Shown here one piece after another: positions 6,609 through 50,778 of a stretch of DNA of 64,000 nucleotides. Location of the stretch: the NCBI GenBank assembly GCA_001783525.1, contig MFMS01000002.1:121791-185790 (forward strand), written 5' to 3'. Position 1 is the stretch's first letter. Each line of letters begins with the position of its first letter. Made by a program: the position numbers and the translations under genes. The DNA is from Candidatus Kaiserbacteria bacterium RIFOXYB1_FULL_46_14. GTDB lineage: Bacteria; Patescibacteriota; Minisyncoccia; Phycocordibacterales; UBA918. The notes beneath the pieces were generated by a model, which ran no database searches, was not told the DNA's origin, and saw nothing but the letters and a program-made list of their open reading frames with translations.

Positions 6609-7328
6609 TCAAAACTGATTTACCACACGAAGATCGCCAGTGTAGAAAAGTCGTACATCATCAACACCGTATTTCATCATTGCCAAACGATCCATGCCCA
6701 TACCAAAGGCAAAACCTTGATAGACAGTCGGATCAATACCAGCATTTCTAAGTACGTTTGGATGCACCATTCCGGCACCCATGATTTCGATCCAGCGACC
6801 GCGAAGCTTTAGAGGCGCATCATCTCCGGTAAGTCGCATATCTACCTCAACACCAGGCTCCACGAATGGAAAGAAGCTAGGACGAAGACGTACTTCCGTC
6901 TTTCCCCCAAAGAAACGAGAAAAGAAAAACTCCAAGGTTCCCTTCAAATGACCCAGTGAGACATCCTTATCAACCATCAGACCTTCTAGTTGGTAAAACT
7001 GTGCCTCGTGTGTGGCGTCGGTCGCTTCGTTACGGAATACCTTGCCTGGGACGATGATGCGAATCGGTGGCTGGTGGTCTTTCATATGACGCACTTGCAC
7101 CGGAGAAGTGTGTGTACGAAGCACGTTGTCGGGCTTGTCTTCTATGTAGAAAGTGTCCTGCATATCACGCGATGGGTGATCTTTAGGAACATTGAGAAGA
7201 TCAAAGTTATAAGCAATTTCTTCCAGCTCTGGACCTTCAACAAATACGAAACCAAGCTCGGCAAAGATGGAGTTCACCTCGGCCATTATTTGTGTCAACG
7301 GATGTTTGTGTCCGGGTTTTGGATTCAT
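6609..7328 (-). CDS. pheS: Phenylalanine--tRNA ligase alpha subunit (catalytic core only, 239 aa)
   Basis: Class II motifs (FDLLNVPKDHPSRDMQDTFY; GFAFGMGMDRLAMM); begins at the equivalent of about residue 100 of E. coli PheS. Confidence 0.9.
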   Translation of the reverse strand: MNPKPGHKHPLTQIMAEVNSIFAELGFVFVEGPELEEIAYNFDLLNVPKDHPSRDMQDTFYIEDKPDNVLRTHTSPVQVRHMKDHQPPIRIIVPGKVFRNEATDATHEAQFYQLEGLMVDKDVSLGHLKGTLEFFFSRFFGGKTEVRLRPSFFPFVEPGVEVDMRLTGDDAPLKLRGRWIEIMGAGMVHPNVLRNAGIDPTVYQGFAFGMGMDRLAMMKYGVDDVRLFYTGDLRVVNQF

Positions 7329-7330
7329 AA

Positions 7331-8473
7331 TTAAAACCAGTTTTGGCTGATGTTGATTTGGTAGATTACCTTGCCATCATAAGCATAGACCGAGCTACCG
7401 ATAACACGGAAAGAAAGATCCTTTCCTAGTAGTAACGGTTGTCGATTTTGCCAAGAGCGATCATCTATTTCTGTGACATAGATACCACTTTTTGTGGCAA
7501 TAATAACTAGATCAACACTGTTTGGAAAGAAATCAAAATGTGAAATAGCTTCACCTTTGTTATCAATCAAAATGACCGGGTCGCAGGTAACTTCATCGGG
7601 TATCTCTTGTACTGGCAAGTCTAGTTCGTTTGTTTCTGCGGTTTTTTCTAAGGTGCCATAAGCGAGAGCTAGGTTACGCTTGGTAGAAGCGGTAGAGGTG
7701 GCTGTTGCGCCCTCCCAGCGTGGAAAATCTTCAGCACAGTAGTAGTACGGCATCTCTTCGCGATTGCCTATAAATGAAGCGTACACCTCATCATCTTGCT
7801 GATATAAGCGAACGCCGCGCCATTCTTTCGTGGTGGTAGCGGTCGAAGTAGCGCTTTCCCCTGTTAGGTTGGATCGTGCGCGATCTAGTACGCTCTCTTC
7901 CTTAACCTCTGGTGATTCAAATTCTTTAAGCAGTTGTGCGTACTCTTGATTCATAACCAGAGTGGTTGTAGAGGCTCGTGGTTCAAAAAGTATCTGATTG
8001 GTGCTGGAGGCACCGTCTAAGATGTCAGAGGTGGATGTTAAAACCGCAACACCAGCTTGCGTCTGCCACTTTGTAATCAAACGGACCTTTGGTACAAGCG
8101 GTAGGTTGAAGGCTTGTGCCTCCGTGACAATATGAGGGTAAACAGGCAATTCTTTTACCCAAGTGTGGTGATCAGCTTTTTGTACGTACACCTTGTGTGT
8201 CATTGCGTCCAAGCCTTGTGCGTAAAAAGCCCGACGGAAAATACGGGTCTCGCGCACTAGTTCATCGTCGATGAAAATCTGTGCGCCAGAGCGCTCAGTC
8301 GCAACGTAGATTCCTCCGGTGGAAACGAGATTTCCGCCAATACCAATAGAGGACAAACGGTAACCAGTAGCGTAAAGAAACAGAAAAGGCAAAGATAAAA
8401 CAAAAATGCCTAACAATAAGTAGAAAAACAAAAAGCGATGTCGATATGAAAGAGGTTGTACTTGTGGAGACAT
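7331..8473 (-). CDS. Membrane-anchored protein with PEGA-like domain (hypothetical)
   Basis: N-terminal TM helix; the segment GGIYVATERSGAQIFIDDELVRETRIF...KVYVQKADHHTW resembles a PEGA domain; 2-nt gap to pheS. Confidence 0.4.
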   Translation of the reverse strand: MSPQVQPLSYRHRFLFFYLLLGIFVLSLPFLFLYATGYRLSSIGIGGNLVSTGGIYVATERSGAQIFIDDELVRETRIFRRAFYAQGLDAMTHKVYVQKADHHTWVKELPVYPHIVTEAQAFNLPLVPKVRLITKWQTQAGVAVLTSTSDILDGASSTNQILFEPRASTTTLVMNQEYAQLLKEFESPEVKEESVLDRARSNLTGESATSTATTTKEWRGVRLYQQDDEVYASFIGNREEMPYYYCAEDFPRWEGATATSTASTKRNLALAYGTLEKTAETNELDLPVQEIPDEVTCDPVILIDNKGEAISHFDFFPNSVDLVIIATKSGIYVTEIDDRSWQNRQPLLLGKDLSFRVIGSSVYAYDGKVIYQINISQNWF

Positions 8474-41080: not shown

Positions 41081-42922
41081 CTACTTAAACTTCTTCAACA
41101 TTTGTTTGAAGGTGGCTATGTCTTTGGCTTGATTATCCAGAGCCTTGAGGAAAGTGTCTTCGCGCTTGGTATCGATGCCGATCGATTTGAATATATCTCC
41201 CACGCTAGCAGAACCACCAGCCGATAGGAATTGATCAATTTGTTCTACATAACTATGATCCGCTTTGTAGTGATTGGCCATTATGGTGCTCATCAAGATG
41301 CCGTAAGCATAGGAGTACACGTAAAAGCCGTAACGGAGATGCGGGATATAGACGTAACTGTAACCATCCTTTGGCTCAACCAGAACGCCTGCGCCAAGAT
41401 AGGCCTTTAGATGCTTTTGCATACACTCTGCCATTTCCTTACTTTCCATGGCTCCTTTTTGTTCGATCGTATTGTGCATCTCAAGCTCACAGTCGAAGAA
41501 TGCCACTTGTCTTTCGATAGTAGCGATGTCACGCGTTATACGATCGTGTAGTAAGGTCAACTTGTCTCGATCCGATACAGTGTTGAAAACGGCATCAAAA
41601 ACCAAGTTTTCGAACAATGTACTGGCGGTCTCGGCAGTAATGATGGAGTGACCTTCATAGAACGAGGTCTGCTTCTTAGAGCGCTCAGCATGAATCGCAT
41701 GACCCATTTCGTGGGCCAGTGTCTCTAGGGATTTGAAATTTGATACATGATTCAGAAAGACATGTGTCGGATGTCCAACATCGCTGGACATAAATGCCCC
41801 ACCTCTCTTGCCTCCCTGTGAAAAGACATCGATCTGTCCGCGCTTCAGCATCGTATCAAAGACGACACCGTACTCTTCCTTTACGCTGTAAAAAACGTCA
41901 CGGCAAATATCCACCGCTTCTTTAAACGAAATGTTTAGCTCACGTCCGATCGTTTCGTACTTTTGAACATAATGAAGCGCCGGTACTTTGTGATAGCTAG
42001 CCTTAAGCTTGTAGAATTCACGAGAAAGCTTGTAGCCACGCGTCCTGACGGCATGAGTCAGATTCTCGATGCTCTTTTCATCATCTTCATAAGCGAGCGC
42101 AGTGGCACTATACGGTTTCTTATAACCACGAAGCTCATCCTCGCCGCGAGCATCAAGAATAATCGCATTCATTTCGTGTTCCGCCATTTCTCCAACCTTT
42201 TCCATCTCGGTCATCAACTTGTCCCACAGCGCAATCTTGTCTTTGGTTTTCAAAAGCTCCAGTGTCTCAAGGGCGACTGGCAAATGAAGAGGTTTCCCTT
42301 TCCATACAATTTGCCGATTACTGATGATCTTTTCTACCGCGTCTGCCCACATTCCACTTGATTGGCGCGACTTGAGACGAATGATTTTTTCCTCCGCTTC
42401 AGAAAGGTGGTACTTGGCACCAAGCCAGAGTTGTTCAAGAAAATAATGAAAATGTGTCAGAGTTTCGTCGGCAAGATAGCGTTTTTGTAAGTCTGGTGGA
42501 GCCTTGCCTAGTTTCAAACTAAAAAAGAGAATCTGATCAGAAGCCTTGCGAAGACGTTTTGAAAGAAGAGAAAGTTGGCGGTTCGCATCGGCGTCGTTCA
42601 CGTTTAGACTTTGACGCAAAGAAAAGTATCGTCCCGGGCGGCCGACCTCTGGTAGCCCTGCTAACTCCTCATACTCAGTAAGAGCCTGCTTCAGCGCGGT
42701 AGCAGAGGCCAGAAAATCACGCGCTGACCACTTTTTGGAAAAGTTTGTATAAGCAAGTTCCGCCGCTTTAATATCAACCTCGATTTGTGGATCTTTGCCA
42801 CTTTTATAATAAAGGCCTTTAAGATCCCAGGTTTCTTTAATAACCGGAGTTTTCGGTAGTGTGCTTTTGGAGTGCCACTTAAAATTATCCTTACTTTTTG
42901 TTTTCTTGGCTTCGCTTAACAT
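41081..42922 (-). CDS. pepF: Oligoendopeptidase F (M3B family zinc metallopeptidase)
   Basis: HEMGHAIH (HExxH) plus the downstream Glu ligand; length and architecture of M3B peptidases. Confidence 0.85.
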   Translation of the reverse strand: MLSEAKKTKSKDNFKWHSKSTLPKTPVIKETWDLKGLYYKSGKDPQIEVDIKAAELAYTNFSKKWSARDFLASATALKQALTEYEELAGLPEVGRPGRYFSLRQSLNVNDADANRQLSLLSKRLRKASDQILFFSLKLGKAPPDLQKRYLADETLTHFHYFLEQLWLGAKYHLSEAEEKIIRLKSRQSSGMWADAVEKIISNRQIVWKGKPLHLPVALETLELLKTKDKIALWDKLMTEMEKVGEMAEHEMNAIILDARGEDELRGYKKPYSATALAYEDDEKSIENLTHAVRTRGYKLSREFYKLKASYHKVPALHYVQKYETIGRELNISFKEAVDICRDVFYSVKEEYGVVFDTMLKRGQIDVFSQGGKRGGAFMSSDVGHPTHVFLNHVSNFKSLETLAHEMGHAIHAERSKKQTSFYEGHSIITAETASTLFENLVFDAVFNTVSDRDKLTLLHDRITRDIATIERQVAFFDCELEMHNTIEQKGAMESKEMAECMQKHLKAYLGAGVLVEPKDGYSYVYIPHLRYGFYVYSYAYGILMSTIMANHYKADHSYVEQIDQFLSAGGSASVGDIFKSIGIDTKREDTFLKALDNQAKDIATFKQMLKKFK

Positions 42923-43487
42923 TACCTAAAAAGTTTTTATACTCCGTATAAACGTGATTGAACTCGCCGATTATAGCATTATCGAGTTGGCGGTTCAGCA
43001 AGTTGGAAAGGTCCTGATAACCTAGTGCTCGTTCTTCCAAAGAGCCGGGAAAATCTACCAAGAATCGGCTGTGGTCATCGTAATATTGTTCAACGATACA
43101 GCGCATATTGTGGATCTTGTCAGCCGCGGCGATCGTGAGCGCTTCTGTCGGCGCTTTTTTCAGTCCTGCTAGATACGCATCTTTCCGCTCTTTCCAAGTA
43201 AGGGCTTTGCCATCTTTCTCTTTTGGTTCGGTCAGCGCTACCACCAGATTGCGAACTTGCTCGCCAAAGTCTTCCTCAAGCTCGGCGGCAGTGTAAGAAG
43301 TATCCTCCAGTACATCGTGCAAAAAGGCAGCTATTACTATGTTTTCATCCTTCGTGTAGTCACGCACCATCCACGCCACAGCAAAAAGATGTGTTATGTA
43401 AGGAAGAGGTGGTACGCCACGCCTCACTTGATCTTTATGGAGCACTGTTGCGGCGCGTATCGCTTGCTCGATTCGGTAGGAGTACAC
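42891..43487 (-). CDS. Stand-alone RelA/SpoT-type HD-domain (p)ppGpp hydrolase (small alarmone hydrolase, Mesh1-like)
   Basis: VLHKDQVRRGVPPLPYITHLFAVAWMV ... IAAFLHDVLEDT ... IAAADKIHNMRCI matches the SpoT hydrolase HD motifs. No synthetase or TGS/ACT domains. Confidence 0.7.
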   Translation of the reverse strand: MYSYRIEQAIRAATVLHKDQVRRGVPPLPYITHLFAVAWMVRDYTKDENIVIAAFLHDVLEDTSYTAAELEEDFGEQVRNLVVALTEPKEKDGKALTWKERKDAYLAGLKKAPTEALTIAAADKIHNMRCIVEQYYDDHSRFLVDFPGSLEERALGYQDLSNLLNRQLDNAIIGEFNHVYTEYKNFLGNVKRSQENKK

Positions 43488-43813: not shown

Positions 43814-44608
43814 TTATTTGATTTTACCCTTCTTCGCCTCTAGGTGTAAAGCCAGCAGTTTTTTGCCAGTAGCCTCACGGTAAGGGCAGTATTCGCAAGA
43901 CTCCCCAGTAGGCGGGATGGCTCGACTATCTAAGAGTTCCTTGATTTTGGCCAAAGTTGGCTCTATCCAATCAACTTTTGTTGGACAATCTACCAAAGTG
44001 GTCTCAAATGTAAGCTTGTCATCAAAGGCATTCTCTTCCTTCGAAGCATTGGCATAGACCAAGTAGCCCATTTCTTCTACTTCGAAACCGTTTTGTTCCA
44101 AGAGCCAACGATATACACCGAGCTGTCTTTGATATTGCTTTTCCCAAGGGCTATCACCGAGTTTTTCAATTCGACCGGTTTTTGAGGTGGCTTTGTAATC
44201 GACTATTATCAATTTCCCCTCCTTTGTCATCCATAGGTCGTCCACTCCTCCAGATACCACTAAGCTAGTTGGTTCATGACGATGTTCGATGCCGACGAAG
44301 GGATCGCGCCACTCGTCCATCTTGGCATGTTTAAAAGGCACAGCATCGACTTTGTAGCGGGTCATAATCGGATGTGCTGTACCAGCCTTGCGATGGATGT
44401 CGAATTCTTTTTTGAAAAGCTCATCGACTGCAATGTTGAGATTGAAAGAAGGCATCGAAGGCCGCTTGGTGCCAAGTTTGTTATCAAGATAAAAACAACG
44501 TGGACACTCAATAAACAAATCAATTTTAGAGCGAGACAAGCGCCATTTGGCACCACCGTAATTCCAGTCTGGAGAGCGGTCAGGATTGTATTTTTTATTA
44601 AATTCCAT
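43814..44608 (-). CDS. PD-(D/E)xK nuclease with Cys cluster (Cas4/RecB-nuclease-like, DUF83-type)
   Basis: GGVDDL (motif II), IVDYK (motif III), QRQLGVYRWLL (QxxxY); Cys at the N-terminus (CPRC) and C-terminus (DCPTK...CEYCPY), consistent with a 4Fe-4S cluster as in Cas4/AddB. Confidence 0.6.
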   Translation of the reverse strand: MEFNKKYNPDRSPDWNYGGAKWRLSRSKIDLFIECPRCFYLDNKLGTKRPSMPSFNLNIAVDELFKKEFDIHRKAGTAHPIMTRYKVDAVPFKHAKMDEWRDPFVGIEHRHEPTSLVVSGGVDDLWMTKEGKLIIVDYKATSKTGRIEKLGDSPWEKQYQRQLGVYRWLLEQNGFEVEEMGYLVYANASKEENAFDDKLTFETTLVDCPTKVDWIEPTLAKIKELLDSRAIPPTGESCEYCPYREATGKKLLALHLEAKKGKIK

Positions 44609-44640
44609 TACTGGATTCTAACAGAGTGCTTTGAATTTAA

Positions 44641-44670
44641 AAAAGGCCGGAGCGAAGCTCCGGCCTTTTT
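44641..44670. terminator. Intrinsic terminator
   Basis: AAAAAGGCCGGAGC-GAAG-CTCCGGCCTTTTTT. Confidence 0.8.
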
Positions 44671-44686
44671 TCCTACAATCAGAACG

Positions 44687-45190
44687 CTACCTAGCTACAA
44701 AACTAGATACTTCGGCATCGACCTGAGCGTCGGTTGCTAGGTCAAAAACCTTATCGCCATTGTCAGAATAAAAGACTATAGCGTAAGTCTTTCCAGACAC
44801 GGTAGGGCGAAGAAGGGTCACTTCAGTTGGTGTTAAGTTCTCTGCCTTGTTGAAGCGAGCGACTCCCAAGAGACCAGTCAACTGGCCACCTTCGTAATCA
44901 CGGATTCCAACCCAACCAGCGTCAGCTGGAAAGGTGACGTTGCTAAGTGATACTTTCTTGTTTGTGGTTGGAACAACTTCAGTTTTATTTTCTGGCTGCT
45001 TTGTCACATCTTCATTTGGTGTATCGCTATTTTCCTCAGCCGTTTCAGGCACAGTGTTGCCATCGACGCGCTTTTCCTCACGGTCTGCTGGATTGGCAAA
45101 AATAAATACAAGTAGACCACCTATTAAAAGGCCAGCGATAAAAGCCACGATAGTCTTCTTGTTTTCCTCAGTCATTGTTTGTTCAGACAT
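44687..45190 (-). CDS. Hypothetical membrane-anchored extracytoplasmic protein (167 aa)
   Basis: N-terminal TM IVAFIAGLLIGGLLVFIF, acidic/Thr-Pro linker, ~90-aa C-terminal domain; TATAAT box upstream. Confidence 0.45.
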   Translation of the reverse strand: MSEQTMTEENKKTIVAFIAGLLIGGLLVFIFANPADREEKRVDGNTVPETAEENSDTPNEDVTKQPENKTEVVPTTNKKVSLSNVTFPADAGWVGIRDYEGGQLTGLLGVARFNKAENLTPTEVTLLRPTVSGKTYAIVFYSDNGDKVFDLATDAQVDAEVSSFVAR

Positions 45191-45238: not shown

Positions 45239-46066
45239 TTAGTCTGCTTTAGACAGTTGACGTGCCTCAGAAATTAATGCTTCTAGTTTACCTTGTGACA
45301 GTCCAAGCTCACTGAGTGTATCGGTCTTATGAAGCACATCCGACGTGACGATTAGGCCAGCGTTCAGAAACTGCATTTTTTGAGCCGCCGAAAGGCTAGT
45401 TAGTACGGTAATCGGGAATAATCCGGTTTTATCAATGAGGGAGTAGAGATTGTCCTCCTTGGGATAGTCCCAGGCCATAAGATCAACCCCCACGCAATTC
45501 GCATACTTGATCGCCGCCGCCGTAAATTTGGTATTGGTGATGATCTTAAGATTCTTTATTCCGCAGACGTCAGCCGAGCAGATCTTTCGATCTGACAAAT
45601 CTAGCAAACGAGCGTAGGAATACATTGCGACCTGCAAATCAGACTTGATTCCTGGGCGAGCGTGAAATTTCGCTTCAGCAATAAAACTATGATCAGCACG
45701 ATAAGCCGCTAAGTCGATTTCATGCAAAGCACACTTGCCTTTTAGAGTAATGCCAACCGATGTTTTGTAACCTTGTGTTTCAAATAACCGGCCGAGAAAT
45801 GTCTCAAAAGGAAAACCGGTTGGCCCCAAGTTGAAGAGTGCGCGACGAAGTGCATAGCGGGCTACCACTTCGGTCTTGGTGCCGCGCAATATTGAAAAGG
45901 CATGCCGGTAAATTTCTTGCGTTCGCATTCCATCGTGTGCGGATTTTTCAACATCACTCACGATCGCTTCGATCGCGTCGTGGGCGGCACCGCTCTTTTT
46001 TAGTGAGCGGCGCAATTTGTTTGAATCAAACTCCTCCACTGTGCCATCAGCTTTTGTAACCAACAT
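45239..46066 (-). CDS. ATP-cone domain fused to Mrr-like (PD-(D/E)xK) restriction-endonuclease-type domain
   Basis: N-terminal LVTKADGTVEEFDSNKLRRSLKKSG...IY ATP-cone signature; C-terminal HEIDLAAY...FIAEAKFH (D...EAK) as in the Mrr catalytic domain. 7-nt gap to the mnmA stop, with no separate SD. Confidence 0.6.
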   Translation of the reverse strand: MLVTKADGTVEEFDSNKLRRSLKKSGAAHDAIEAIVSDVEKSAHDGMRTQEIYRHAFSILRGTKTEVVARYALRRALFNLGPTGFPFETFLGRLFETQGYKTSVGITLKGKCALHEIDLAAYRADHSFIAEAKFHARPGIKSDLQVAMYSYARLLDLSDRKICSADVCGIKNLKIITNTKFTAAAIKYANCVGVDLMAWDYPKEDNLYSLIDKTGLFPITVLTSLSAAQKMQFLNAGLIVTSDVLHKTDTLSELGLSQGKLEALISEARQLSKAD

Positions 46067-46073
46067 AACACTG

Positions 46074-47138
46074 CTATTTTATCACGGCGCCTCCGATCAG
46101 CTGATCCTTATCGTAAAAGACAACAGACTGGCCACTGTCGGGCTTTTCGATGTCGGACAGAGGAGTTACTCGTAAATCTTCTTTACTGCCGCTTAGAGTG
46201 ACCACAAAGGGCTTCTGCCTATAACGAAACTGGGCTTCGATGTTGGTATTACGAGGTAACGAATCACCAATGAAGTTGCTACTTTCCAGCAAAAGCTTAT
46301 CGCTTACTACCAACAAAGCCGGTTTAGTATCTACTGTGATGGTATTGCGTGCGATGTCCTTGTCGACTACGAAGTGCGGCTTGGTGTCACCCTCTGCGGT
46401 ATTGATCTTGAAGCCGTGGCGCTGGCCAAGTGTATAAACGAGGGCGCCTTGATGCGTACCGATTGGTTTACCTAACTTATCGATAACAATCCCCTCTTTC
46501 AAATCAACAAAATGTCCGATGAACTCCGGTATATCAACGTGTCCAAGGAAACAAACACCCTGACTGTCCTTACGGGTGGCGGTGGGTAATCCGGCCGCCA
46601 TAGCCTCAGCACGTACTTTTTCTTTTATAGTGTCGCCAATTGGAAAAAGTGTATGGGCCAGATCCTCCTCTGTTAACGTCCACAAAAAATACGACTGGTC
46701 TTTGGCAGTATCAACTCCTCTGTAAAGGCGAGGCCGACCGTCCTCATTGATGATTTGAGCATAGTGTCCAGTCGCTATGTAATCAGCACCGTGCTCTTTT
46801 GCGAAATTCCAAAAAGCGCCGAATTTAACATAACGATTACACATCACGTCAGGATTAGGGGTTCGACCCCTTTCATACTCTTTGATGAAATATTCACCAA
46901 CGTCTCGCCGATATTCTAGAGCGGCATCAAAGGTCAAAAACGGGATATCGAGATGTGCTGCGGCACGCATAGCGTCTAGCCGATCCTTTTCAGCATCACA
47001 TTCCAAAAAATCTGGTTGCCAAACTTTTATAAAAACTCCAACCACGTCAAAACCAGCACGCTTCAGTCGAAGCGCGGCCACCGAAGAATCGACACCTCCG
47101 GAGAGTCCGACAAAAACTTTTTGTGCTGATTTATTCAT
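46074..47138 (-). CDS. mnmA: tRNA-specific 2-thiouridylase MnmA
   Basis: PP-loop VGLSGGVDSSV; Cys pairs of MnmA. Confidence 0.9.
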   Translation of the reverse strand: MNKSAQKVFVGLSGGVDSSVAALRLKRAGFDVVGVFIKVWQPDFLECDAEKDRLDAMRAAAHLDIPFLTFDAALEYRRDVGEYFIKEYERGRTPNPDVMCNRYVKFGAFWNFAKEHGADYIATGHYAQIINEDGRPRLYRGVDTAKDQSYFLWTLTEEDLAHTLFPIGDTIKEKVRAEAMAAGLPTATRKDSQGVCFLGHVDIPEFIGHFVDLKEGIVIDKLGKPIGTHQGALVYTLGQRHGFKINTAEGDTKPHFVVDKDIARNTITVDTKPALLVVSDKLLLESSNFIGDSLPRNTNIEAQFRYRQKPFVVTLSGSKEDLRVTPLSDIEKPDSGQSVVFYDKDQLIGGAVIK

Positions 47139-47269: not shown

Positions 47270-48253
47270 TTATTTGAGGTACTTTGCAATATTTGCCCTA
47301 TGTTCGTCAAATGTCTTGGCGTAGTGAAAATTTCCCTCCTCGTCGGTTATATAATACAGATATTCAGTATCTTCCGGTTCGAGCACAGCATCAATTGAAT
47401 TAAGGCCTGGATTACCAATCGGTGTCGGTGTTAGTCCGGCATACTTATACGTATTGTACGGAGTGTCTCGTTCTAAATCTTCAGCTCTAAGATCGCTGAG
47501 GGGACGACCTAAAGCATATTCAATTGATGCATCTGTCTGGAGGCGCATCCCTAGCTGTAAGCGTTTTTGTAAGATGCCAGAAACGATTCGCATTGATTCC
47601 TCTGTGTTGGCTTCACGTTCAAGTAGTGAAGCTAGCACTATAACGCCGTCTTCCTTAAGCGGATGTGAGGCCATGGGCTCTTTTCTTGAAGCCACTTTCT
47701 GCTCATAAGTAGTTTTGAGCAATGTTAGCAATTCTGCAGCGGTAAAATCCTCCGGAATGTAGTAAGTGTCAGGAAAAAGATAGCCCTCCATACCTGCCGC
47801 TGAATTCAAAAATTCCGTGCCGTCAAATTGTGACAGGCCTTCTGCGGCCAACAAAGCAAACTCTTTTGTTGTGTAGCCCTCAGGCAAGGTCAGTCGTACC
47901 AGGGTGTCTCCATCGGCGTCTCTGGTGATTCGGTCGATTACAGAGAAGGCAGTTAACGGCGTGTCGAAATAATAGCTACCGGCCTTAACGTTATTTGGAT
48001 CATGCCAAGTTATCAAAATAATGTGTGCTAACAATGAAGACCGTACTGCCTTTGCCTCCTCGAGCTTCTCTACAATAGCCGCCGCTGAAAGTCCACGCGT
48101 AATTGTGATGGTTGTATTAATTGGAAAGTCCGCCGGTGGTCTGGTCTGCCACCAAAATAGCACCAGCAACAAAGAAGCTGTCGCAATAATAAACCCGATG
48201 ACCCACAACCACAAAAAGCGTGACGTCCGACCGACTATATCCATATCTATCAT
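47270..48253 (-). CDS. mltG: Endolytic murein transglycosylase MltG (YceG family)
   Basis: N-terminal TM, YceG-like domain (...YYITDEEGNFHYAKTFDEHRANIAKY). Confidence 0.85.
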   Translation of the reverse strand: MIDMDIVGRTSRFLWLWVIGFIIATASLLLVLFWWQTRPPADFPINTTITITRGLSAAAIVEKLEEAKAVRSSLLAHIILITWHDPNNVKAGSYYFDTPLTAFSVIDRITRDADGDTLVRLTLPEGYTTKEFALLAAEGLSQFDGTEFLNSAAGMEGYLFPDTYYIPEDFTAAELLTLLKTTYEQKVASRKEPMASHPLKEDGVIVLASLLEREANTEESMRIVSGILQKRLQLGMRLQTDASIEYALGRPLSDLRAEDLERDTPYNTYKYAGLTPTPIGNPGLNSIDAVLEPEDTEYLYYITDEEGNFHYAKTFDEHRANIAKYLK

Positions 48254-49644
48254 TGCTTGAATTCGCCAATCGGCAAGTTTGATGGGGCTTCACCACGTTT
48301 CGATGGTACACGATCGATAGTAGGTGTAAGTGCCACTGATCCTGGCAAGTGGAAAATGGTTGCTAACTCCTCTGCAGTAAAGACCTTGTAATCGTCCCCT
48401 CCGCTTTTAGGTGCATATACACGACGTCTGTATTCTTTTAACTCCTGCTTCTTCAGTGCCATAAGCTCCTTTTTCTTTTTACCAGGGAAGAAATCTTTGT
48501 AGTCGAAGTCGGTACGCCAACGAACACCGATGCCGTTTAATCCCCAGTCGAACTGGCTAAACATACGAATTACCGGGTTGATTAAGTCACCGTTAAAGCC
48601 GCCCTTTTGGTTGACGTAAATCCAGCGAATCACAGTATTGTAGGCATACTTGCTGGAGTGGCGTTCTAGTGTCGCGATCGCATCGCGCTCTCCTGCAGTC
48701 AACATCGCCATTTGTCCGCCCTCGTCAGTACCTTTGAAACCAAGCGGAGTTTTTGTCTTTGCATCTCGATTCATCATTTCGTTGATGGCTTTTTTAGATC
48801 CATCATTCCAGTTTGGTCCTTCGCCGATTTGTAGTTGTCCGTTTTGAAAACTAGATCGGCGGAATGAGATTGCTAGTATCTGTACAAACAGCCGCTCGTG
48901 CGGCTTAATACTACCCATTACCTCGAGCATTGGCGTCATTGGGTCAACTTTTTCTTCTTCTTTGGGCATCTTATCGAGACCGTAGTCGATGTAAGATTTG
49001 ATTGGGAAATGTCCATCTCTCTTCTTACCCATATGAACTGCAAAAAGTTCATAACCGAGCTTTTCGTAATTGAGTGGTATTTCGGCGGCGTAGTCGATTG
49101 GTTCTTCGATTATCTCAACGTTTGGATACTGTGCATACATATTGGCCTCAAAGGCGTCCTTGGTCTTTTTAGTCGGAACGTTCACATAGAAACGCACTTC
49201 GCCACCGATTGACGCCAACTCAAAAGAAAACGGCAGCGGTCGTTTGCCTTGGATGTAGGTTTGCATAAAATTGTCTGGATTGGCAGTGTTGTGGATTTGA
49301 GAAATGACAAACTCCATAGCTTCAGGAGATTTCATTACTTCTTGAGGTAGGCGAATACGTAGCGTAGTGCGGCCTTGTCCAAGGCTAAAAATCGGCCCAA
49401 TGGTATCCATCCACTTATAGAAAAAAAGTAGAAAGAGAACCACCGGAAGCCACAATGGAATAAGGGCAATAAAAACAGTCAGTACGTTGCCGGTTGATAT
49501 ACCAAAAACAACGAAGCCGACTATTATGAGAAGAAAAGCGATACCAGCGATCAGCGGACCATAATCAAGATCCTGATCGTTTATCCACTTAAAGGTAGCC
49601 CCAGCGAGGGGAACATGTTCTTCGTAGAATTCCTTGCCAAACAC
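48250..49644 (-). CDS. Hypothetical membrane protein (2 TM + ~370-aa domain), ATGA-overlapped with mltG
   Basis: Two N-terminal TM helices; no recognised domain; 4-nt overlap implies translational coupling with mltG. Confidence 0.5.
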   Translation of the reverse strand: MFGKEFYEEHVPLAGATFKWINDQDLDYGPLIAGIAFLLIIVGFVVFGISTGNVLTVFIALIPLWLPVVLFLLFFYKWMDTIGPIFSLGQGRTTLRIRLPQEVMKSPEAMEFVISQIHNTANPDNFMQTYIQGKRPLPFSFELASIGGEVRFYVNVPTKKTKDAFEANMYAQYPNVEIIEEPIDYAAEIPLNYEKLGYELFAVHMGKKRDGHFPIKSYIDYGLDKMPKEEEKVDPMTPMLEVMGSIKPHERLFVQILAISFRRSSFQNGQLQIGEGPNWNDGSKKAINEMMNRDAKTKTPLGFKGTDEGGQMAMLTAGERDAIATLERHSSKYAYNTVIRWIYVNQKGGFNGDLINPVIRMFSQFDWGLNGIGVRWRTDFDYKDFFPGKKKKELMALKKQELKEYRRRVYAPKSGGDDYKVFTAEELATIFHLPGSVALTPTIDRVPSKRGEAPSNLPIGEFKQ

Positions 49645-49749: not shown

Positions 49750-50778
49750 TTAGTCGGTTACAAGAGCGTATGCTCCATTACCAAGACGTTTGAACATATT
49801 GGTGTCCTGAAGGTTTACCACGATAGTGTTGTCCTTCACGTAGCGCTCCTTGCGAACCTTGTCGATGATTTCATCGCGAGTAAGAGGACCATGCTTCTCC
49901 AAAATATCTCGCAAGACGTCCTTCACCACTCCGGCTGAGTAACCCCACTCGGAGAGAGCATAAAGACCACGGCCAACCAATACAAACCGGCGGTCTTTGA
50001 TCAGCTCATTGTGTGTAGTAGCAACGTGAGCTTTGCGTTCAAAAAGCTGTTCAATCATATTGGCCACCTCGCGGAAGTGCATCGGAGAACCGTGACGTTT
50101 CACTACCAAGTAAGCATAATCACGAATACCCTTCACTTTTACGTTCGGACTAGTGGTGTGTCCCCATTCACCAAGCGGGTTGCGAGAAATATCCTTAGAC
50201 ACCATCAACCAACGCTTCAAAACATCCTCATTGTATTTGTCAGCAAGACCAATCAACTGCTCCTTGAAGCGAGCCAGTATTTCTTCTTCAGACACGAGTT
50301 GATCGCGTTCTAGAGATTGATGCACGTTGCGGAGAGCCTTTTCTACGGTATCTGCCTTTTCACGTTCAGTGAACCAACGGTGCATGTAAGAGGTGTTTTC
50401 TTTGGCACGGTAAAACGGATCACCAACTACAAGTAGGAAATAGATGTGATTACGAGTTGCTTGATCAGATGAAAGTGCCTCAAGCAAATGGTCTTCGGCA
50501 ATGAAACCACCACCCAACTCCTCAATCAGACGATGTAGTTCATCAAAGACACTTTTGTATTCGTCGTAGATCGGAGACTTCTGGATAGATGCGATGCCGT
50601 AGGCCTCGATCTGACGCACACGTTCACGGGTGATTCCATAGGCCTGACCAATCGACTCAAGGGTGAAAGATTCGGTTTCGGTGCCGAGACCATAGCGCTT
50701 AGTGAGGACGTCACGGGCGCGCTCTGGCAAGGCAGACAAGAGCTTTTTGGTTATCTGCTTTGGTTTAAAGGTAATCAT
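49750..50778 (-). CDS. Protein with N-terminal sigma-70 region-4-like HTH and a ~270-aa uncharacterised C-terminal domain
   Basis: LSALPERARDVLTKRYGL...TLESIGQAYGITRERVRQIEAYGIASI matches the region 4.2 signature; no regions 2 or 3. TTGACG-17-TAATAT promoter upstream. Confidence 0.5.
   Translation of the reverse strand: MITFKPKQITKKLLSALPERARDVLTKRYGLGTETESFTLESIGQAYGITRERVRQIEAYGIASIQKSPIYDEYKSVFDELHRLIEELGGGFIAEDHLLEALSSDQATRNHIYFLLVVGDPFYRAKENTSYMHRWFTEREKADTVEKALRNVHQSLERDQLVSEEEILARFKEQLIGLADKYNEDVLKRWLMVSKDISRNPLGEWGHTTSPNVKVKGIRDYAYLVVKRHGSPMHFREVANMIEQLFERKAHVATTHNELIKDRRFVLVGRGLYALSEWGYSAGVVKDVLRDILEKHGPLTRDEIIDKVRKERYVKDNTIVVNLQDTNMFKRLGNGAYALVTD

What the first reader, a model, noticed from the sequence alone, without database searches (positions are those of the whole stretch)
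45239..47138. ATP-cone::Mrr-type endonuclease fusion translationally coupled to mnmA
A 275-aa protein joins an N-terminal ATP-cone with a C-terminal Mrr-like PD-(D/E)xK nuclease core (D...EAK). The ATP-cone is the ATP/dATP-sensing regulatory module of NrdR and ribonucleotide reductases. The fusion therefore suggests a nuclease that is allosterically gated by nucleotide pools, a logic used by several recently described anti-phage systems that sense dNTP depletion or accumulation. Its ATG lies 7 nt after the mnmA stop, with no SD of its own, so it appears co-transcribed and translationally coupled with a tRNA-modification gene. That is an odd partner for a restriction-like nuclease. No cognate methyltransferase is nearby.
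Basis: partly seen in the sequence, partly recalled or inferred. Interest (0 to 1): 0.6.

Follow-up and report, generated by a model that had tools for sequence, protein, structure and literature searches.

The report
ATP-sensing nuclease, housekeeping not defence
The gene encodes a real fusion of an ATP-sensing domain with a DNA/RNA-cutting enzyme, but it looks like a conserved core gene of these tiny bacteria, probably tying nucleic-acid breakdown to the cell's energy state, and not like an anti-virus weapon.

Summary
Window 45239-46066 (-) encodes a 275-aa protein that starts 7 nt after the mnmA stop codon.

The defence reading is not supported:
- There is no PADLOC, phage or viral-contig match.
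- No methyltransferase or defence gene lies nearby.
- In all 65 Patescibacteria genomes with enough upstream sequence, the gene sits directly after mnmA. The start codon usually overlaps the mnmA stop, inside a conserved housekeeping gene order.
- It is about as conserved as MnmA (median identity 54% against 55%).

Full-length homologues (34-40% identity) occur in Bacteroidota, Chlamydiota and metagenomes. There they head an operon that continues with a beta-CASP ribonuclease-like protein (43 of 77 loci). An AMP-phosphorylase-like protein and a Prs-like protein often follow. These operons lie in islands of universal stress proteins, HSP20 and fermentative or glycolytic genes.

Best reading (inferred): an endonuclease gated by adenine nucleotides that opens nucleic acid for turnover or nucleotide salvage. 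The family is listed in databases, and I found no experimental characterisation. I rate it a new variant of ligand-gated nucleases, of moderate interest.

The parts
45239..46066 (-). Gene X: 275-aa protein with ATP-cone, PD-(D/E)xK nuclease and HhH domains
   Evidence: ORF. Identical protein in Ca. Kaiserbacteria and 2420 homologues. Domains. AF2 model with pLDDT 85.3 and pTM 0.73.
45833..46066 (-). ATP-cone domain (aa 1-78)
45803..45829 (-). LGPTGFPFE motif (aa 80-88) joining the ATP-cone to the nuclease; ends in the invariant E88
   Evidence: The most conserved stretch of the family. G81, G84, F87 and E88 are 100% conserved. Both collection scans chose it as a search pattern.
45422..45817 (-). 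PD-(D/E)xK nuclease core of the AF1548 type (aa 84-215)
45713..45715 (-). Codon of catalytic D118 (in the H115-E116-I-D118 motif)
   Evidence: Read from the sequence. 100% conserved. Equals AF1548 D38.
45668..45676 (-). Codons of E131-A132-K133, the (D/E)xK motif
   Evidence: Read from the sequence. E131 and K133 are 100% conserved. They equal AF1548 E51 and K53.
45257..45418 (-). C-terminal helix-hairpin-helix-type domain (AF1548-like_C, aa 217-270)
46067..46073 (-). 7-nt spacer between the mnmA stop codon (TAG) and the ATG of X
   Evidence: Sequence. In homologous loci the median gap is 1 nt and the stop and start codons often overlap.
46074..47138 (-). mnmA (tRNA 2-thiouridine(34) synthase), the conserved upstream gene
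   Evidence: NF001138, E 1.8e-113. Directly upstream of X in 65 of 65 Patescibacteria loci with enough upstream sequence.
43814..45190 (-). Conserved downstream neighbours: a DUF7282-like membrane protein (44687-45190) and a Cas4-like PD-(D/E)xK nuclease (43814-44608)
   Evidence: Pfam. Synteny across Patescibacteria loci. No intrinsic terminator was found between X and these genes beyond what chance gives.

Best explanation
X is a physiological endonuclease, not an immune one, and its activity is set by adenine-nucleotide levels.

Proposed mechanism. The N-terminal ATP-cone binds ATP, dATP or ADP. As in NrdR and ribonucleotide reductases, it probably switches the oligomeric or conformational state of the protein. 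The invariant LGPTGFPFE junction passes this signal to a metal-dependent PD-(D/E)xK active site (E88, E116, D118, E131, K133). The C-terminal HhH domain holds the nucleic-acid backbone. The cuts leave 5'-phosphate ends that exonucleases can digest to mononucleotides.

Role in other phyla. In Bacteroidota, Chlamydiota and other lineages the gene heads an operon. That operon continues with a beta-CASP ribonuclease-like exonuclease, an AMP-phosphorylase-like enzyme and a Prs-like enzyme. It lies inside low-oxygen, stress and fermentation islands. There the protein would start nucleic-acid (probably RNA) breakdown for ribose and nucleotide recycling when energy charge falls.

Role in the window's organism. 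This is a Kaiserbacteria (Paceibacteria-type) bacterium, known to be fermentative and dependent on nucleotide salvage. Here the gene has become a constitutive core gene, made by translational coupling behind mnmA in a housekeeping gene array.

Shown: the domain architecture, conserved catalytic and ATP-cone residues, conserved synteny and coupling, the operon partners in other phyla, and the absence of defence signals.

Inferred: nucleotide binding, the direction of regulation, the substrate (RNA or DNA), and the salvage role.
For: Architecture and catalytic competence:
- Domains.
- E88, E116, D118, E131, K133, R153, D156 and N178 are 100% conserved in 265 sequences. ATP-cone residues K5, G8, F13 and K17 are at least 94% conserved.

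Core-gene behaviour in Patescibacteria:
- At least 585 species genomes carry a relative.
- The order orf342, orf464, YceG, mnmA, X, (DUF7282), Cas4-like, HD, PepF is conserved.
- mnmA lies upstream in 65 of 65 loci. The median gap is 1 nt and 48 of 65 gaps are 20 nt or less.
- Median identity is 54% against 55% for MnmA.

Link to nucleotide catabolism and energy stress in other phyla:
- X, beta-CASP MBL, thymidine-phosphorylase-family protein and ribose-phosphate pyrophosphokinase form one operon on a Pontibacter plasmid and a Criblamydia plasmid. The Criblamydia copy is flanked by phosphoketolase, glycogen phosphorylase and acetate kinase.
- beta-CASP lies downstream on the same strand in 43 of 77 loci (30 within 100 nt). 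The TP-family gene is present in 14 of 53 loci, Prs in 13 of 53, and a Usp gene upstream in 28 of 81.
- The TP-family protein scores 480-506 bits on the AMP phosphorylase model TIGR03327. The beta-CASP is closest to the RNA-cleaving aCPSF1 and Cas14 models.
- Flavobacteriaceae loci read 4x Usp, X, beta-CASP, HSP20.
- Locus L092 holds a 13-gene island with PFK, an aldolase-like protein, a GAPDH-like protein, 2-hydroxyacid dehydrogenase, Usp, X, beta-CASP, TP and Prs.
- The MBL, Prs and TP-family genes bll3115-3117 are induced by microoxia in Bradyrhizobium (PMC6515984).

Resemblance to ligand-gated nucleases:
- A weak PADLOC match to the CARF_PDDEXK nuclease domain for the Pontibacter homologue.
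Against: - There is no biochemical evidence for nucleotide binding or nuclease activity in any family member. No paper on the family was found.
- The catabolic partners (beta-CASP, TP family, Prs) are absent within 6 kb of X in all Patescibacteria loci and from the whole 64-kb window. The salvage role is therefore transferred from homologues of only 34-40% identity.
- About 44% of non-Patescibacteria loci lack the beta-CASP neighbour. They show other contexts, such as heavy-metal P-type ATPases, a Cu-resistance ICE, or no partner at all.
- HhH domains and the closest nuclease folds (NucS, restriction enzymes) point to DNA, whereas the beta-CASP partner points to RNA. The substrate is unresolved.
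- The ATP-cone position equivalent to NrdA R10 is Ala.
- The loci were chosen as best matches to X, which inflates its apparent conservation somewhat.
Confidence: 0.45

Rival explanations
1. X is a structure-specific DNA repair or recombination endonuclease, in the manner of NucS/EndoMS, Hjc or XPF (nuclease plus HhH). It would be a housekeeping enzyme of a reduced genome, with the ATP-cone tying its activity to dATP/ATP levels.
Against: The recurrent operon partners are an RNA-type beta-CASP, an AMP-phosphorylase-like enzyme and Prs, none of which is a repair protein. No RecA, Ruv, ligase or helicase neighbour was seen in the loci examined. Structural similarity to NucS and Hjc is at the general fold level only (9-17% identity).
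Confidence: 0.22
2. X is an RNA endonuclease functionally tied to MnmA. It might cleave tRNA or act in quality control of hypomodified tRNA, or in stable-RNA decay. That would explain the universal mnmA-X coupling in Patescibacteria.
For: mnmA lies directly upstream in 65 of 65 loci, often with overlapping stop and start codons. In other phyla the partner is an RNA-type beta-CASP. One metagenomic locus has a cysteine desulfurase, the sulphur donor of MnmA, directly downstream.
Against: No mnmA lies next to X in any of 101 non-Patescibacteria loci. The whole block around mnmA is syntenic, and overlaps between unrelated genes are common in this genome. Coupling may therefore reflect genome compaction only. 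No RNA-binding domain was detected.
Confidence: 0.12
3. One reading: X is a Mrr-like (type IV) restriction or abortive-infection nuclease. It would be switched on by changes in ATP/dATP pools caused by phage.
For: The PD-(D/E)xK core is related to Mrr_cat, which passes its threshold in the Bacteroidota homologues. The best non-AF1548 folds include the modification-dependent enzymes AspBHI and MspJI and the cOA-activated Can2 and Card1. NCBI names some homologues 'restriction endonuclease'. One Planctomycetota locus lies near a SNF2/NOV_C helicase, and two contigs carrying the identical protein differ downstream. An identical protein is carried on a Bacteroidota ICE.
Against: There is no PADLOC match, no phage hit, no IMG/VR hit, and no full-length viral structural match. 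The position is fixed and single in a housekeeping array in all 65 loci that could be assessed, with conservation equal to MnmA. No DNA-modification-reading domain is present. No defence genes lie nearby in the window or in about 100 loci from other phyla.
Confidence: 0.07
4. X is a non-catalytic, NrdR-like nucleotide-sensing DNA-binding regulator that uses a dead nuclease fold plus HhH to bind DNA.
For: The ATP-cone is best known from the repressor NrdR. An HhH domain is present. Histidine kinase and Crp-type regulators lie in the same islands.
Against: All catalytic residues (E88, D118, E131, K133) are 100% conserved across 265 diverse sequences. That pattern is not expected of an inactivated fold. 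No Zn-ribbon or HTH domain is present.
Confidence: 0.04

Closest known systems
AF1548 of Archaeoglobus fulgidus (PDB 1Y88), a structural-genomics protein of unknown function
   Different: AF1548 has no ATP-cone; the match starts at residue 90 of X. It lacks the 8-residue CxxxxC insert of the Patescibacteria proteins. It has no known function either.
NrdR and the ATP-cones of ribonucleotide reductases
   Different: The output domain is a nuclease, not a Zn-ribbon DNA binder or a reductase. There is no link to nrd genes in any locus. NrdA R10 is replaced by Ala.
CARF/SAVED-gated PD-(D/E)xK nucleases (Can2, Card1, Cdn1, Cap4, NucC)
   Different: The sensor is an ATP-cone, not CARF or SAVED. No cyclase or CRISPR partner is present. 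The context is housekeeping or metabolic, not defence.
Mrr / type IV restriction endonucleases (Pfam Mrr_cat)
   Same: Same clan of nuclease core with the D...(E)xK motif. The Bacteroidota homologues pass the Mrr_cat threshold.
   Different: The window protein is below the threshold (18.2 bits against 21). It has no Mrr N-terminal DNA-recognition domain, and its distribution is not defence-like.
Archaeal AMP-phosphorylase (pentose bisphosphate) nucleotide-degradation pathway
   Same: In other phyla X is co-operonic with a ~500-aa thymidine-phosphorylase-family protein. That protein scores just under the AMP phosphorylase model. This suggests NMPs are channelled into sugar-phosphate metabolism.
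   Different: No R15P isomerase or RuBisCO was seen in the loci examined. The partners are Prs-like and beta-CASP proteins instead. None of this lies next to X in the window.

Membership tests
ATP-cone (PF03477) | Match to the family HMM above the curated threshold | tested here: met
   37.8 bits against a cutoff of 25.8, residues 1-75
ATP-cone (PF03477) | Four-helix ATP-cone fold with an N-terminal beta-hairpin | tested here: met
ATP-cone (PF03477) | Nucleotide-contacting residues (NrdA K9, R10, E15, K21, T55, by established knowledge) | tested here: inconclusive
   K5, E11, K17 and T49 align with K9, E15, K21 and T55, but R10 is Ala. The pairwise alignment has E about 0.5-1. K5, G8, F13 and K17 are at least 94% conserved in the family.
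ATP-cone (PF03477) | Binds ATP/dATP | not testable with these tools
   Needs ITC or a filter-binding assay
AF1548-like nuclease (PDB 1Y88; PF22357 C-terminal domain) | Sequence and fold match over both the nuclease and the C-terminal domain | tested here: met
PD-(D/E)xK nuclease superfamily | Catalytic D ... (D/E)xK motif on the core beta-strands, conserved in homologues | tested here: met
   D118 and E131-A-K133 are 100% conserved in 265 sequences. The strands are E114-123 and E126-133 in the model.
Mrr / type IV restriction endonuclease (PF04471 Mrr_cat) | Match to Mrr_cat above the curated threshold | tested here: not met
   18.2 bits against a cutoff of 21, and only residues 84-132 match. 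Homologues in Bacteroidota do pass.
Mrr / type IV restriction endonuclease (PF04471 Mrr_cat) | N-terminal DNA-recognition (winged-helix, Mrr_N-type) domain | tested here: not met
   The N-terminus is an ATP-cone, and no other Pfam domain was found.
Known anti-phage defence systems (PADLOC-DB 2.0) | Match of the protein or its neighbours to a defence-system model set | tested here: not met
   No hit for X. The neighbours give only generic Cas4-domain and coiled-coil hits.
Restriction-modification system | Cognate DNA methyltransferase in the same locus | tested here: not met
   No methyltransferase among the genes scanned from about 36 to 55.5 kb.
NrdR | N-terminal Zn-ribbon plus ATP-cone, with a link to nrd genes | tested here: not met
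   There is no Zn-ribbon, the ATP-cone sits at the extreme N-terminus, and there are no nrd neighbours.
CARF-PD-(D/E)xK nucleases (Can2/Card1) | CARF sensor domain that binds cyclic oligoadenylate | tested here: not met
   Only the nuclease domain is similar. The sensor here is an ATP-cone.

The most novel reading that the evidence does not exclude
The ATP-cone/AF1548-type nucleases are a widespread enzyme class that has not been characterised, in which the ATP-cone works outside deoxyribonucleotide synthesis as an energy-charge sensor. At low ATP it would license an endonuclease that opens stable RNA (or DNA) for a beta-CASP exonuclease and an NMP phosphorylase. The cell's own nucleic acid would thus become ribose-phosphate and ATP during anoxia or dormancy. 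In nucleotide-auxotrophic Patescibacteria the same enzyme would have become an essential, constitutively expressed gatekeeper of nucleotide salvage.
Probability: 0.3. Interest if true: 0.75.

Novelty: new variant of a known kind. Interest (0 to 1): 0.55.

Why it matters
ATP-cones have so far been studied mainly as regulators of ribonucleotide reductases and of NrdR. A nuclease under ATP-cone control would extend this allosteric module to nucleic-acid degradation. The family is large: at least 405 clusters at 50% identity with E <= 1e-30, and at least 585 species genomes.

The family is a fixed core gene in a major branch of the Candidate Phyla Radiation. These organisms cannot make nucleotides and must recycle them, so the gene is a concrete candidate for a control point of nucleotide salvage there.

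In cultivable Bacteroidota the same gene heads an operon with a beta-CASP nuclease, an AMP-phosphorylase-like enzyme and Prs, inside low-oxygen and stress islands. That operon offers a tractable system for asking how bacteria mobilise RNA for energy during hypoxia or dormancy.

The result also warns against reading every sensor-nuclease fusion as an immune system.

Tried and rejected
- Defence reading. I tested it with PADLOC on X and its neighbours, tblastn against phage and plasmid records, an IMG/VR scan and a viral structure library. Nothing beyond generic nuclease-domain similarity came up.
- Promoter and terminator scan around mnmA and X. Counts were no higher than in shuffled sequence, so it says nothing about transcription units.
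- Rfam and tRNA scans of the window. Only a distant tRNA-Thr was found, and no RNA element lies near X.
- Informative domain fusions among longer homologues. I found only Lys/Ala-rich N-terminal extensions in Planctomycetota (HC2 below threshold), which may be gene-calling artefacts.
- Literature searches for ATP-cone nucleases, AF1548 and the operon partners. They yielded only the AF1548 catalytic-residue prediction (PMC1821046) and the Bradyrhizobium microoxia data (PMC6515984).
- Metal site. I considered that the four Cys residues (C112, C163, C168, C191), invariant among the 16 aligned Patescibacteria proteins, form a metal site. C163 and C168 are specific to that clade.
- The afdb50 fold library was not available.
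- I looked for beta-CASP, TP-family and Prs genes in the window and in the Patescibacteria loci. None was found.
Full report
1. THE OBSERVATION

The minus strand of the window carries two ORFs at the stated coordinates. One is a 275-aa ORF at 45239-46066, and the other is a 354-aa ORF at 46074-47138. The upstream ORF is MnmA: NCBIfam NF001138 gives E 1.8e-113, and all three Pfam MnmA domains are present. The junction reads TAG-cagtgtt-ATG, a 7-nt spacer. The only GGAGG nearby lies 23 nt before the ATG, inside mnmA, so there is no canonical Shine-Dalgarno.

The 275-aa protein, called X here, is identical to a deposited protein of Candidatus Kaiserbacteria bacterium RIFOXYB1_FULL_46_14. It has 2420 detectable homologues, so it is a real gene.

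2. ANATOMY

X has three domains, not two.

(i) Residues 1-78 form an ATP-cone.
- Pfam PF03477 gives E 2.8e-9, above the gathering score.
- K5, G8, F13 and K17 are at least 94% conserved.
- In an alignment with E. coli NrdA, K5/E11/K17/T49 fall on K9/E15/K21/T55, and R10 is replaced by Ala. That pairwise alignment is not significant by itself.

(ii) Residues ~84-215 form a PD-(D/E)xK nuclease core.
- The Pfam Mrr_cat match is below threshold (18.2 bits against 21).
- D118 and E131-A-K133 are the residues predicted to be catalytic in AF1548 (D38/E51/K53; PMC1821046).
- Together with E88, E116, R153, D156 and N178 they are invariant in 265 family sequences.

The most conserved stretch of the whole family is LGPTGFPFE (residues 80-88). 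It links the cone to the first catalytic Glu.

3. CONTEXT IN THE WINDOW AND IN RELATED GENOMES

The window around X is one co-directional array of housekeeping genes. In order these are AlaRS, oligopeptidase F, an HD_4 hydrolase, a coiled-coil protein, a Cas4-like nuclease, a DUF7282-like membrane protein, X, MnmA, MltG/YceG, an unknown membrane protein, a sigma-r4/HARE-HTH protein, LeuRS, DUF5671 and YchF. There is no methyltransferase and no defence gene.

A scan of one genome per species found at least 585 genomes with a relative. In every one of the 65 Patescibacteria loci with enough upstream sequence, mnmA lies directly upstream of X. The wider order orf342, orf464, YceG, mnmA, X, (DUF7282), Cas4-like, HD, PepF is also conserved.

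The mnmA-X gap has a median of 1 nt. In 48 of 65 loci it is 20 nt or less, and in many the codons overlap as TAATG, TGATG or TAGTG. Translational coupling is therefore real and ancient.

Overlaps between unrelated neighbours are common in this genome, however. For example, orf464 and YceG overlap by 4 nt, and HD and PepF overlap by 32 nt. The coupling is thus not strong evidence of a shared function with MnmA.

Over the same genomes X is as conserved as MnmA, with median identity of 54% against 55%. The loci were chosen by similarity to X, which favours X slightly.

4. CONTEXT IN OTHER PHYLA

Full-length homologues (34-40% identity, same three domains) occur in Bacteroidota, Planctomycetota, Chlamydiota and many metagenomes. 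They never lie next to mnmA. Instead I found the following.

- On a Pontibacter plasmid and a Criblamydia plasmid the same four-gene operon occurs. It consists of X, a beta-CASP MBL hydrolase, a thymidine-phosphorylase-family protein and ribose-phosphate pyrophosphokinase. In Criblamydia it sits between phosphoketolase plus glycogen phosphorylase on one side and acetate kinase on the other.
- Across 101 non-Patescibacteria loci, a beta-CASP gene follows X on the same strand in 43 of 77 loci with enough downstream sequence, and in 30 of them within 100 nt. The TP-family gene is present in 14 of 53 loci and Prs in 13 of 53. A tandem-domain universal stress protein lies just upstream in 28 of 81.
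- The TP-family proteins match TIGR02645/PRK04350. They reach 480-506 bits on the AMP phosphorylase model, whose cutoff is 535.
- The beta-CASP is closest to the RNA-cleaving aCPSF1 and Cas14 models and carries the RMMBL domain.
- Flavobacteriaceae loci read 4x Usp, X, beta-CASP, HSP20, with PAS histidine kinase and Crp-type regulators nearby.
- One marine contig (L092) has a 13-gene co-directional island. It holds a Na+/H+ antiporter, a GAPDH-like protein, a DeoC-like aldolase, a hydrolase, PFK, MgtC, 2-hydroxyacid dehydrogenase, Usp, X, beta-CASP, TP, Prs and a P-type ATPase.
- In Bradyrhizobium diazoefficiens the MBL, Prs and TP-family genes bll3115-3117 are induced in microoxia at both RNA and protein level (PMC6515984). 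I could not check whether an X homologue lies beside them.
- Loci without beta-CASP show heavy-metal P-type ATPases, a Cu-resistance conjugative element, a PAS kinase, a cyclomaltodextrinase, LeuRS or a cysteine desulfurase. The only faintly defence-like neighbour is a SNF2/NOV_C helicase in one Planctomycetota contig.

5. THE DEFENCE HYPOTHESIS

- X has no PADLOC match.
- There is no tblastn hit in 50,697 phage records.
- Only 2 of 72,556 plasmids carry a homologue, and both copies sit in the metabolic operon above.
- There is no hit in IMG/VR.
- Viral structure matches cover the generic nuclease domain only.

Together with the fixed position, the conservation level and the housekeeping or metabolic contexts, this makes an immune role unlikely. 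I put it at about 0.07. It is not excluded, because the nuclease core belongs to the Mrr clan and resembles Can2/Card1.

6. HOW IT MOST LIKELY WORKS

Shown: a sensor domain of the ATP-cone class is fused through an invariant junction to a PD-(D/E)xK active site with all catalytic residues intact. A backbone-binding HhH domain follows.

Inferred from established knowledge of ATP-cones in NrdR and RNRs: binding of ATP, dATP or ADP changes the oligomeric state and thereby switches the output domain.

Inferred from the operon partners: the nuclease makes internal cuts that leave 5'-phosphate ends. A beta-CASP 5'-3' exonuclease can then convert these to 5'-NMPs. An AMP-phosphorylase-like enzyme and a Prs-like enzyme move the ribose moiety into sugar-phosphate metabolism. 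Neighbouring glycolytic or phosphoketolase enzymes yield ATP. An ATP-cone would be a natural sensor of when to start this process.

In Patescibacteria, known to be fermentative and unable to synthesise nucleotides de novo (established knowledge, not tested here), the gene is a core gene without these partners nearby. I propose that it serves constitutive nucleic-acid turnover or salvage there. This transfer of function across 34-40% identity is the weakest step.

The substrate (RNA or DNA) and the sign of the regulation are unknown.

Rivals are:
- a (d)ATP-regulated DNA repair or resolvase-type nuclease (0.22);
- a tRNA/RNA nuclease functionally tied to MnmA (0.12);
- a defence nuclease (0.07);
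- a non-catalytic regulator (0.04, disfavoured by the invariant catalytic residues).

7. COMPARISON WITH WHAT IS KNOWN, AND NOVELTY

X is a member of the AF1548-like nuclease family and carries a bona fide ATP-cone. It is not a threshold-passing Mrr_cat protein. It is not NrdR, because it has no Zn-ribbon. It is not a CARF nuclease either.

Databases already list the architecture, under names such as 'ATP cone domain-containing protein', 'restriction endonuclease', 'ATPase' and 'YraN family protein'. Eight full-text searches found no experimental or comparative study of it. From memory, the original ATP-cone paper (Aravind, Wolf and Koonin 2000) described the domain as evolutionarily mobile. 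I could not check whether it lists this fusion.

I rate X a new variant of a known kind, namely ligand-gated PD-(D/E)xK nucleases and ATP-cone-regulated proteins.

8. VERDICT

The 'nucleotide-gated nuclease' logic is plausible. The defence framing is not supported. The most interesting result is the recurrent operon of X with a beta-CASP gene, an NMP-phosphorylase-like gene and Prs in stress and fermentation islands. That gives the family a testable physiological hypothesis. Interest 0.55.

Noticed in passing
window 43814-44608 (-): A Cas4-like PD-(D/E)XK nuclease of 264 aa (PDDEXK_1 E 6.3e-15, Cas_Cas4 E 5.2e-7). It has an N-terminal CxxC and a C-terminal CxxC, as in Fe-S Cas4/AddB nucleases. 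It is a syntenic core gene in Patescibacteria (47-79% identity, more conserved than MnmA), and no cas1/cas2 was seen nearby.
   Followed up: partly
window 45563-45580 (-), aa 163-168 of X: The Patescibacteria proteins carry an 8-residue insert relative to AF1548, containing C163 and C168. With C112 and C191 (98% conserved family-wide) this gives four Cys residues invariant among the 16 aligned Patescibacteria proteins, possibly a metal site. Their proximity in 3D could not be checked.
   Followed up: partly
window 49750-50778 (-): A 342-aa protein with Sigma70 region 4 and a HARE-HTH domain. It is the most conserved gene of the syntenic block (median 70% identity across 54 Patescibacteria loci). 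Its function is unclear.
   Followed up: no
window 48250-49644 (-): A 464-aa predicted membrane protein with no Pfam match. It is conserved in synteny across Patescibacteria, and its stop overlaps the YceG/MltG start by 4 nt.
   Followed up: no
window 42891-43487 (-) and 41081-42922 (-): An HD_4 (RelA/SpoT-type HD hydrolase) protein of 198 aa overlaps the start of an M3 oligopeptidase F gene by 32 nt. The pair is conserved in many Patescibacteria loci.
   Followed up: no
L092 33-15956 (marine metagenome contig); similar in L098, L118, L124: A co-directional island of about 13 genes. It holds a Na+/H+ antiporter, a GAPDH-like protein, a DeoC-like aldolase, an a/b hydrolase, PFK, MgtC/DUF4010, 2-hydroxyacid dehydrogenase, Usp, X, beta-CASP, an AMP-phosphorylase-like protein, a Prs-like protein and a P-type ATPase. 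It looks like a low-oxygen or energy-stress survival module whose nucleotide-catabolic branch has not been described in the literature searched.
   Followed up: partly
L085-L087 (Myroides/Sphingobacterium), gene at 7001-7855: An identical 284-aa X homologue is shared by several Bacteroidota genera. It lies inside a copper-resistance island with RteC (conjugative-transposon type), after a GAPDH-like gene and a DeoC-like gene and before a heavy-metal P-type ATPase. This is evidence of recent horizontal transfer of the gene with metabolic or metal cargo.
   Followed up: partly
L166 8876-10090: In one metagenomic locus X is followed directly by a class-V aminotransferase (cysteine desulfurase type), the sulphur donor of MnmA-type enzymes. 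It is a single case and may be coincidence.
   Followed up: no
P0249, P0412, P0413 (Planctomycetota homologues): Some gene calls add a 190-250-aa Lys/Ala-rich N-terminal extension (weak HC2 histone-H1-like match, below threshold) in front of the ATP-cone. Other members of the same 90% cluster are 280 aa. This may be an alternative start or a gene-calling artefact.
   Followed up: partly
L001, L053, L060, L077, L079 (Patescibacteria loci): In a minority of genomes the mnmA-X gap is 400-800 nt instead of about 0. This may reflect an inserted small gene or a diverged MnmA C-terminus. I did not examine it.
   Followed up: no
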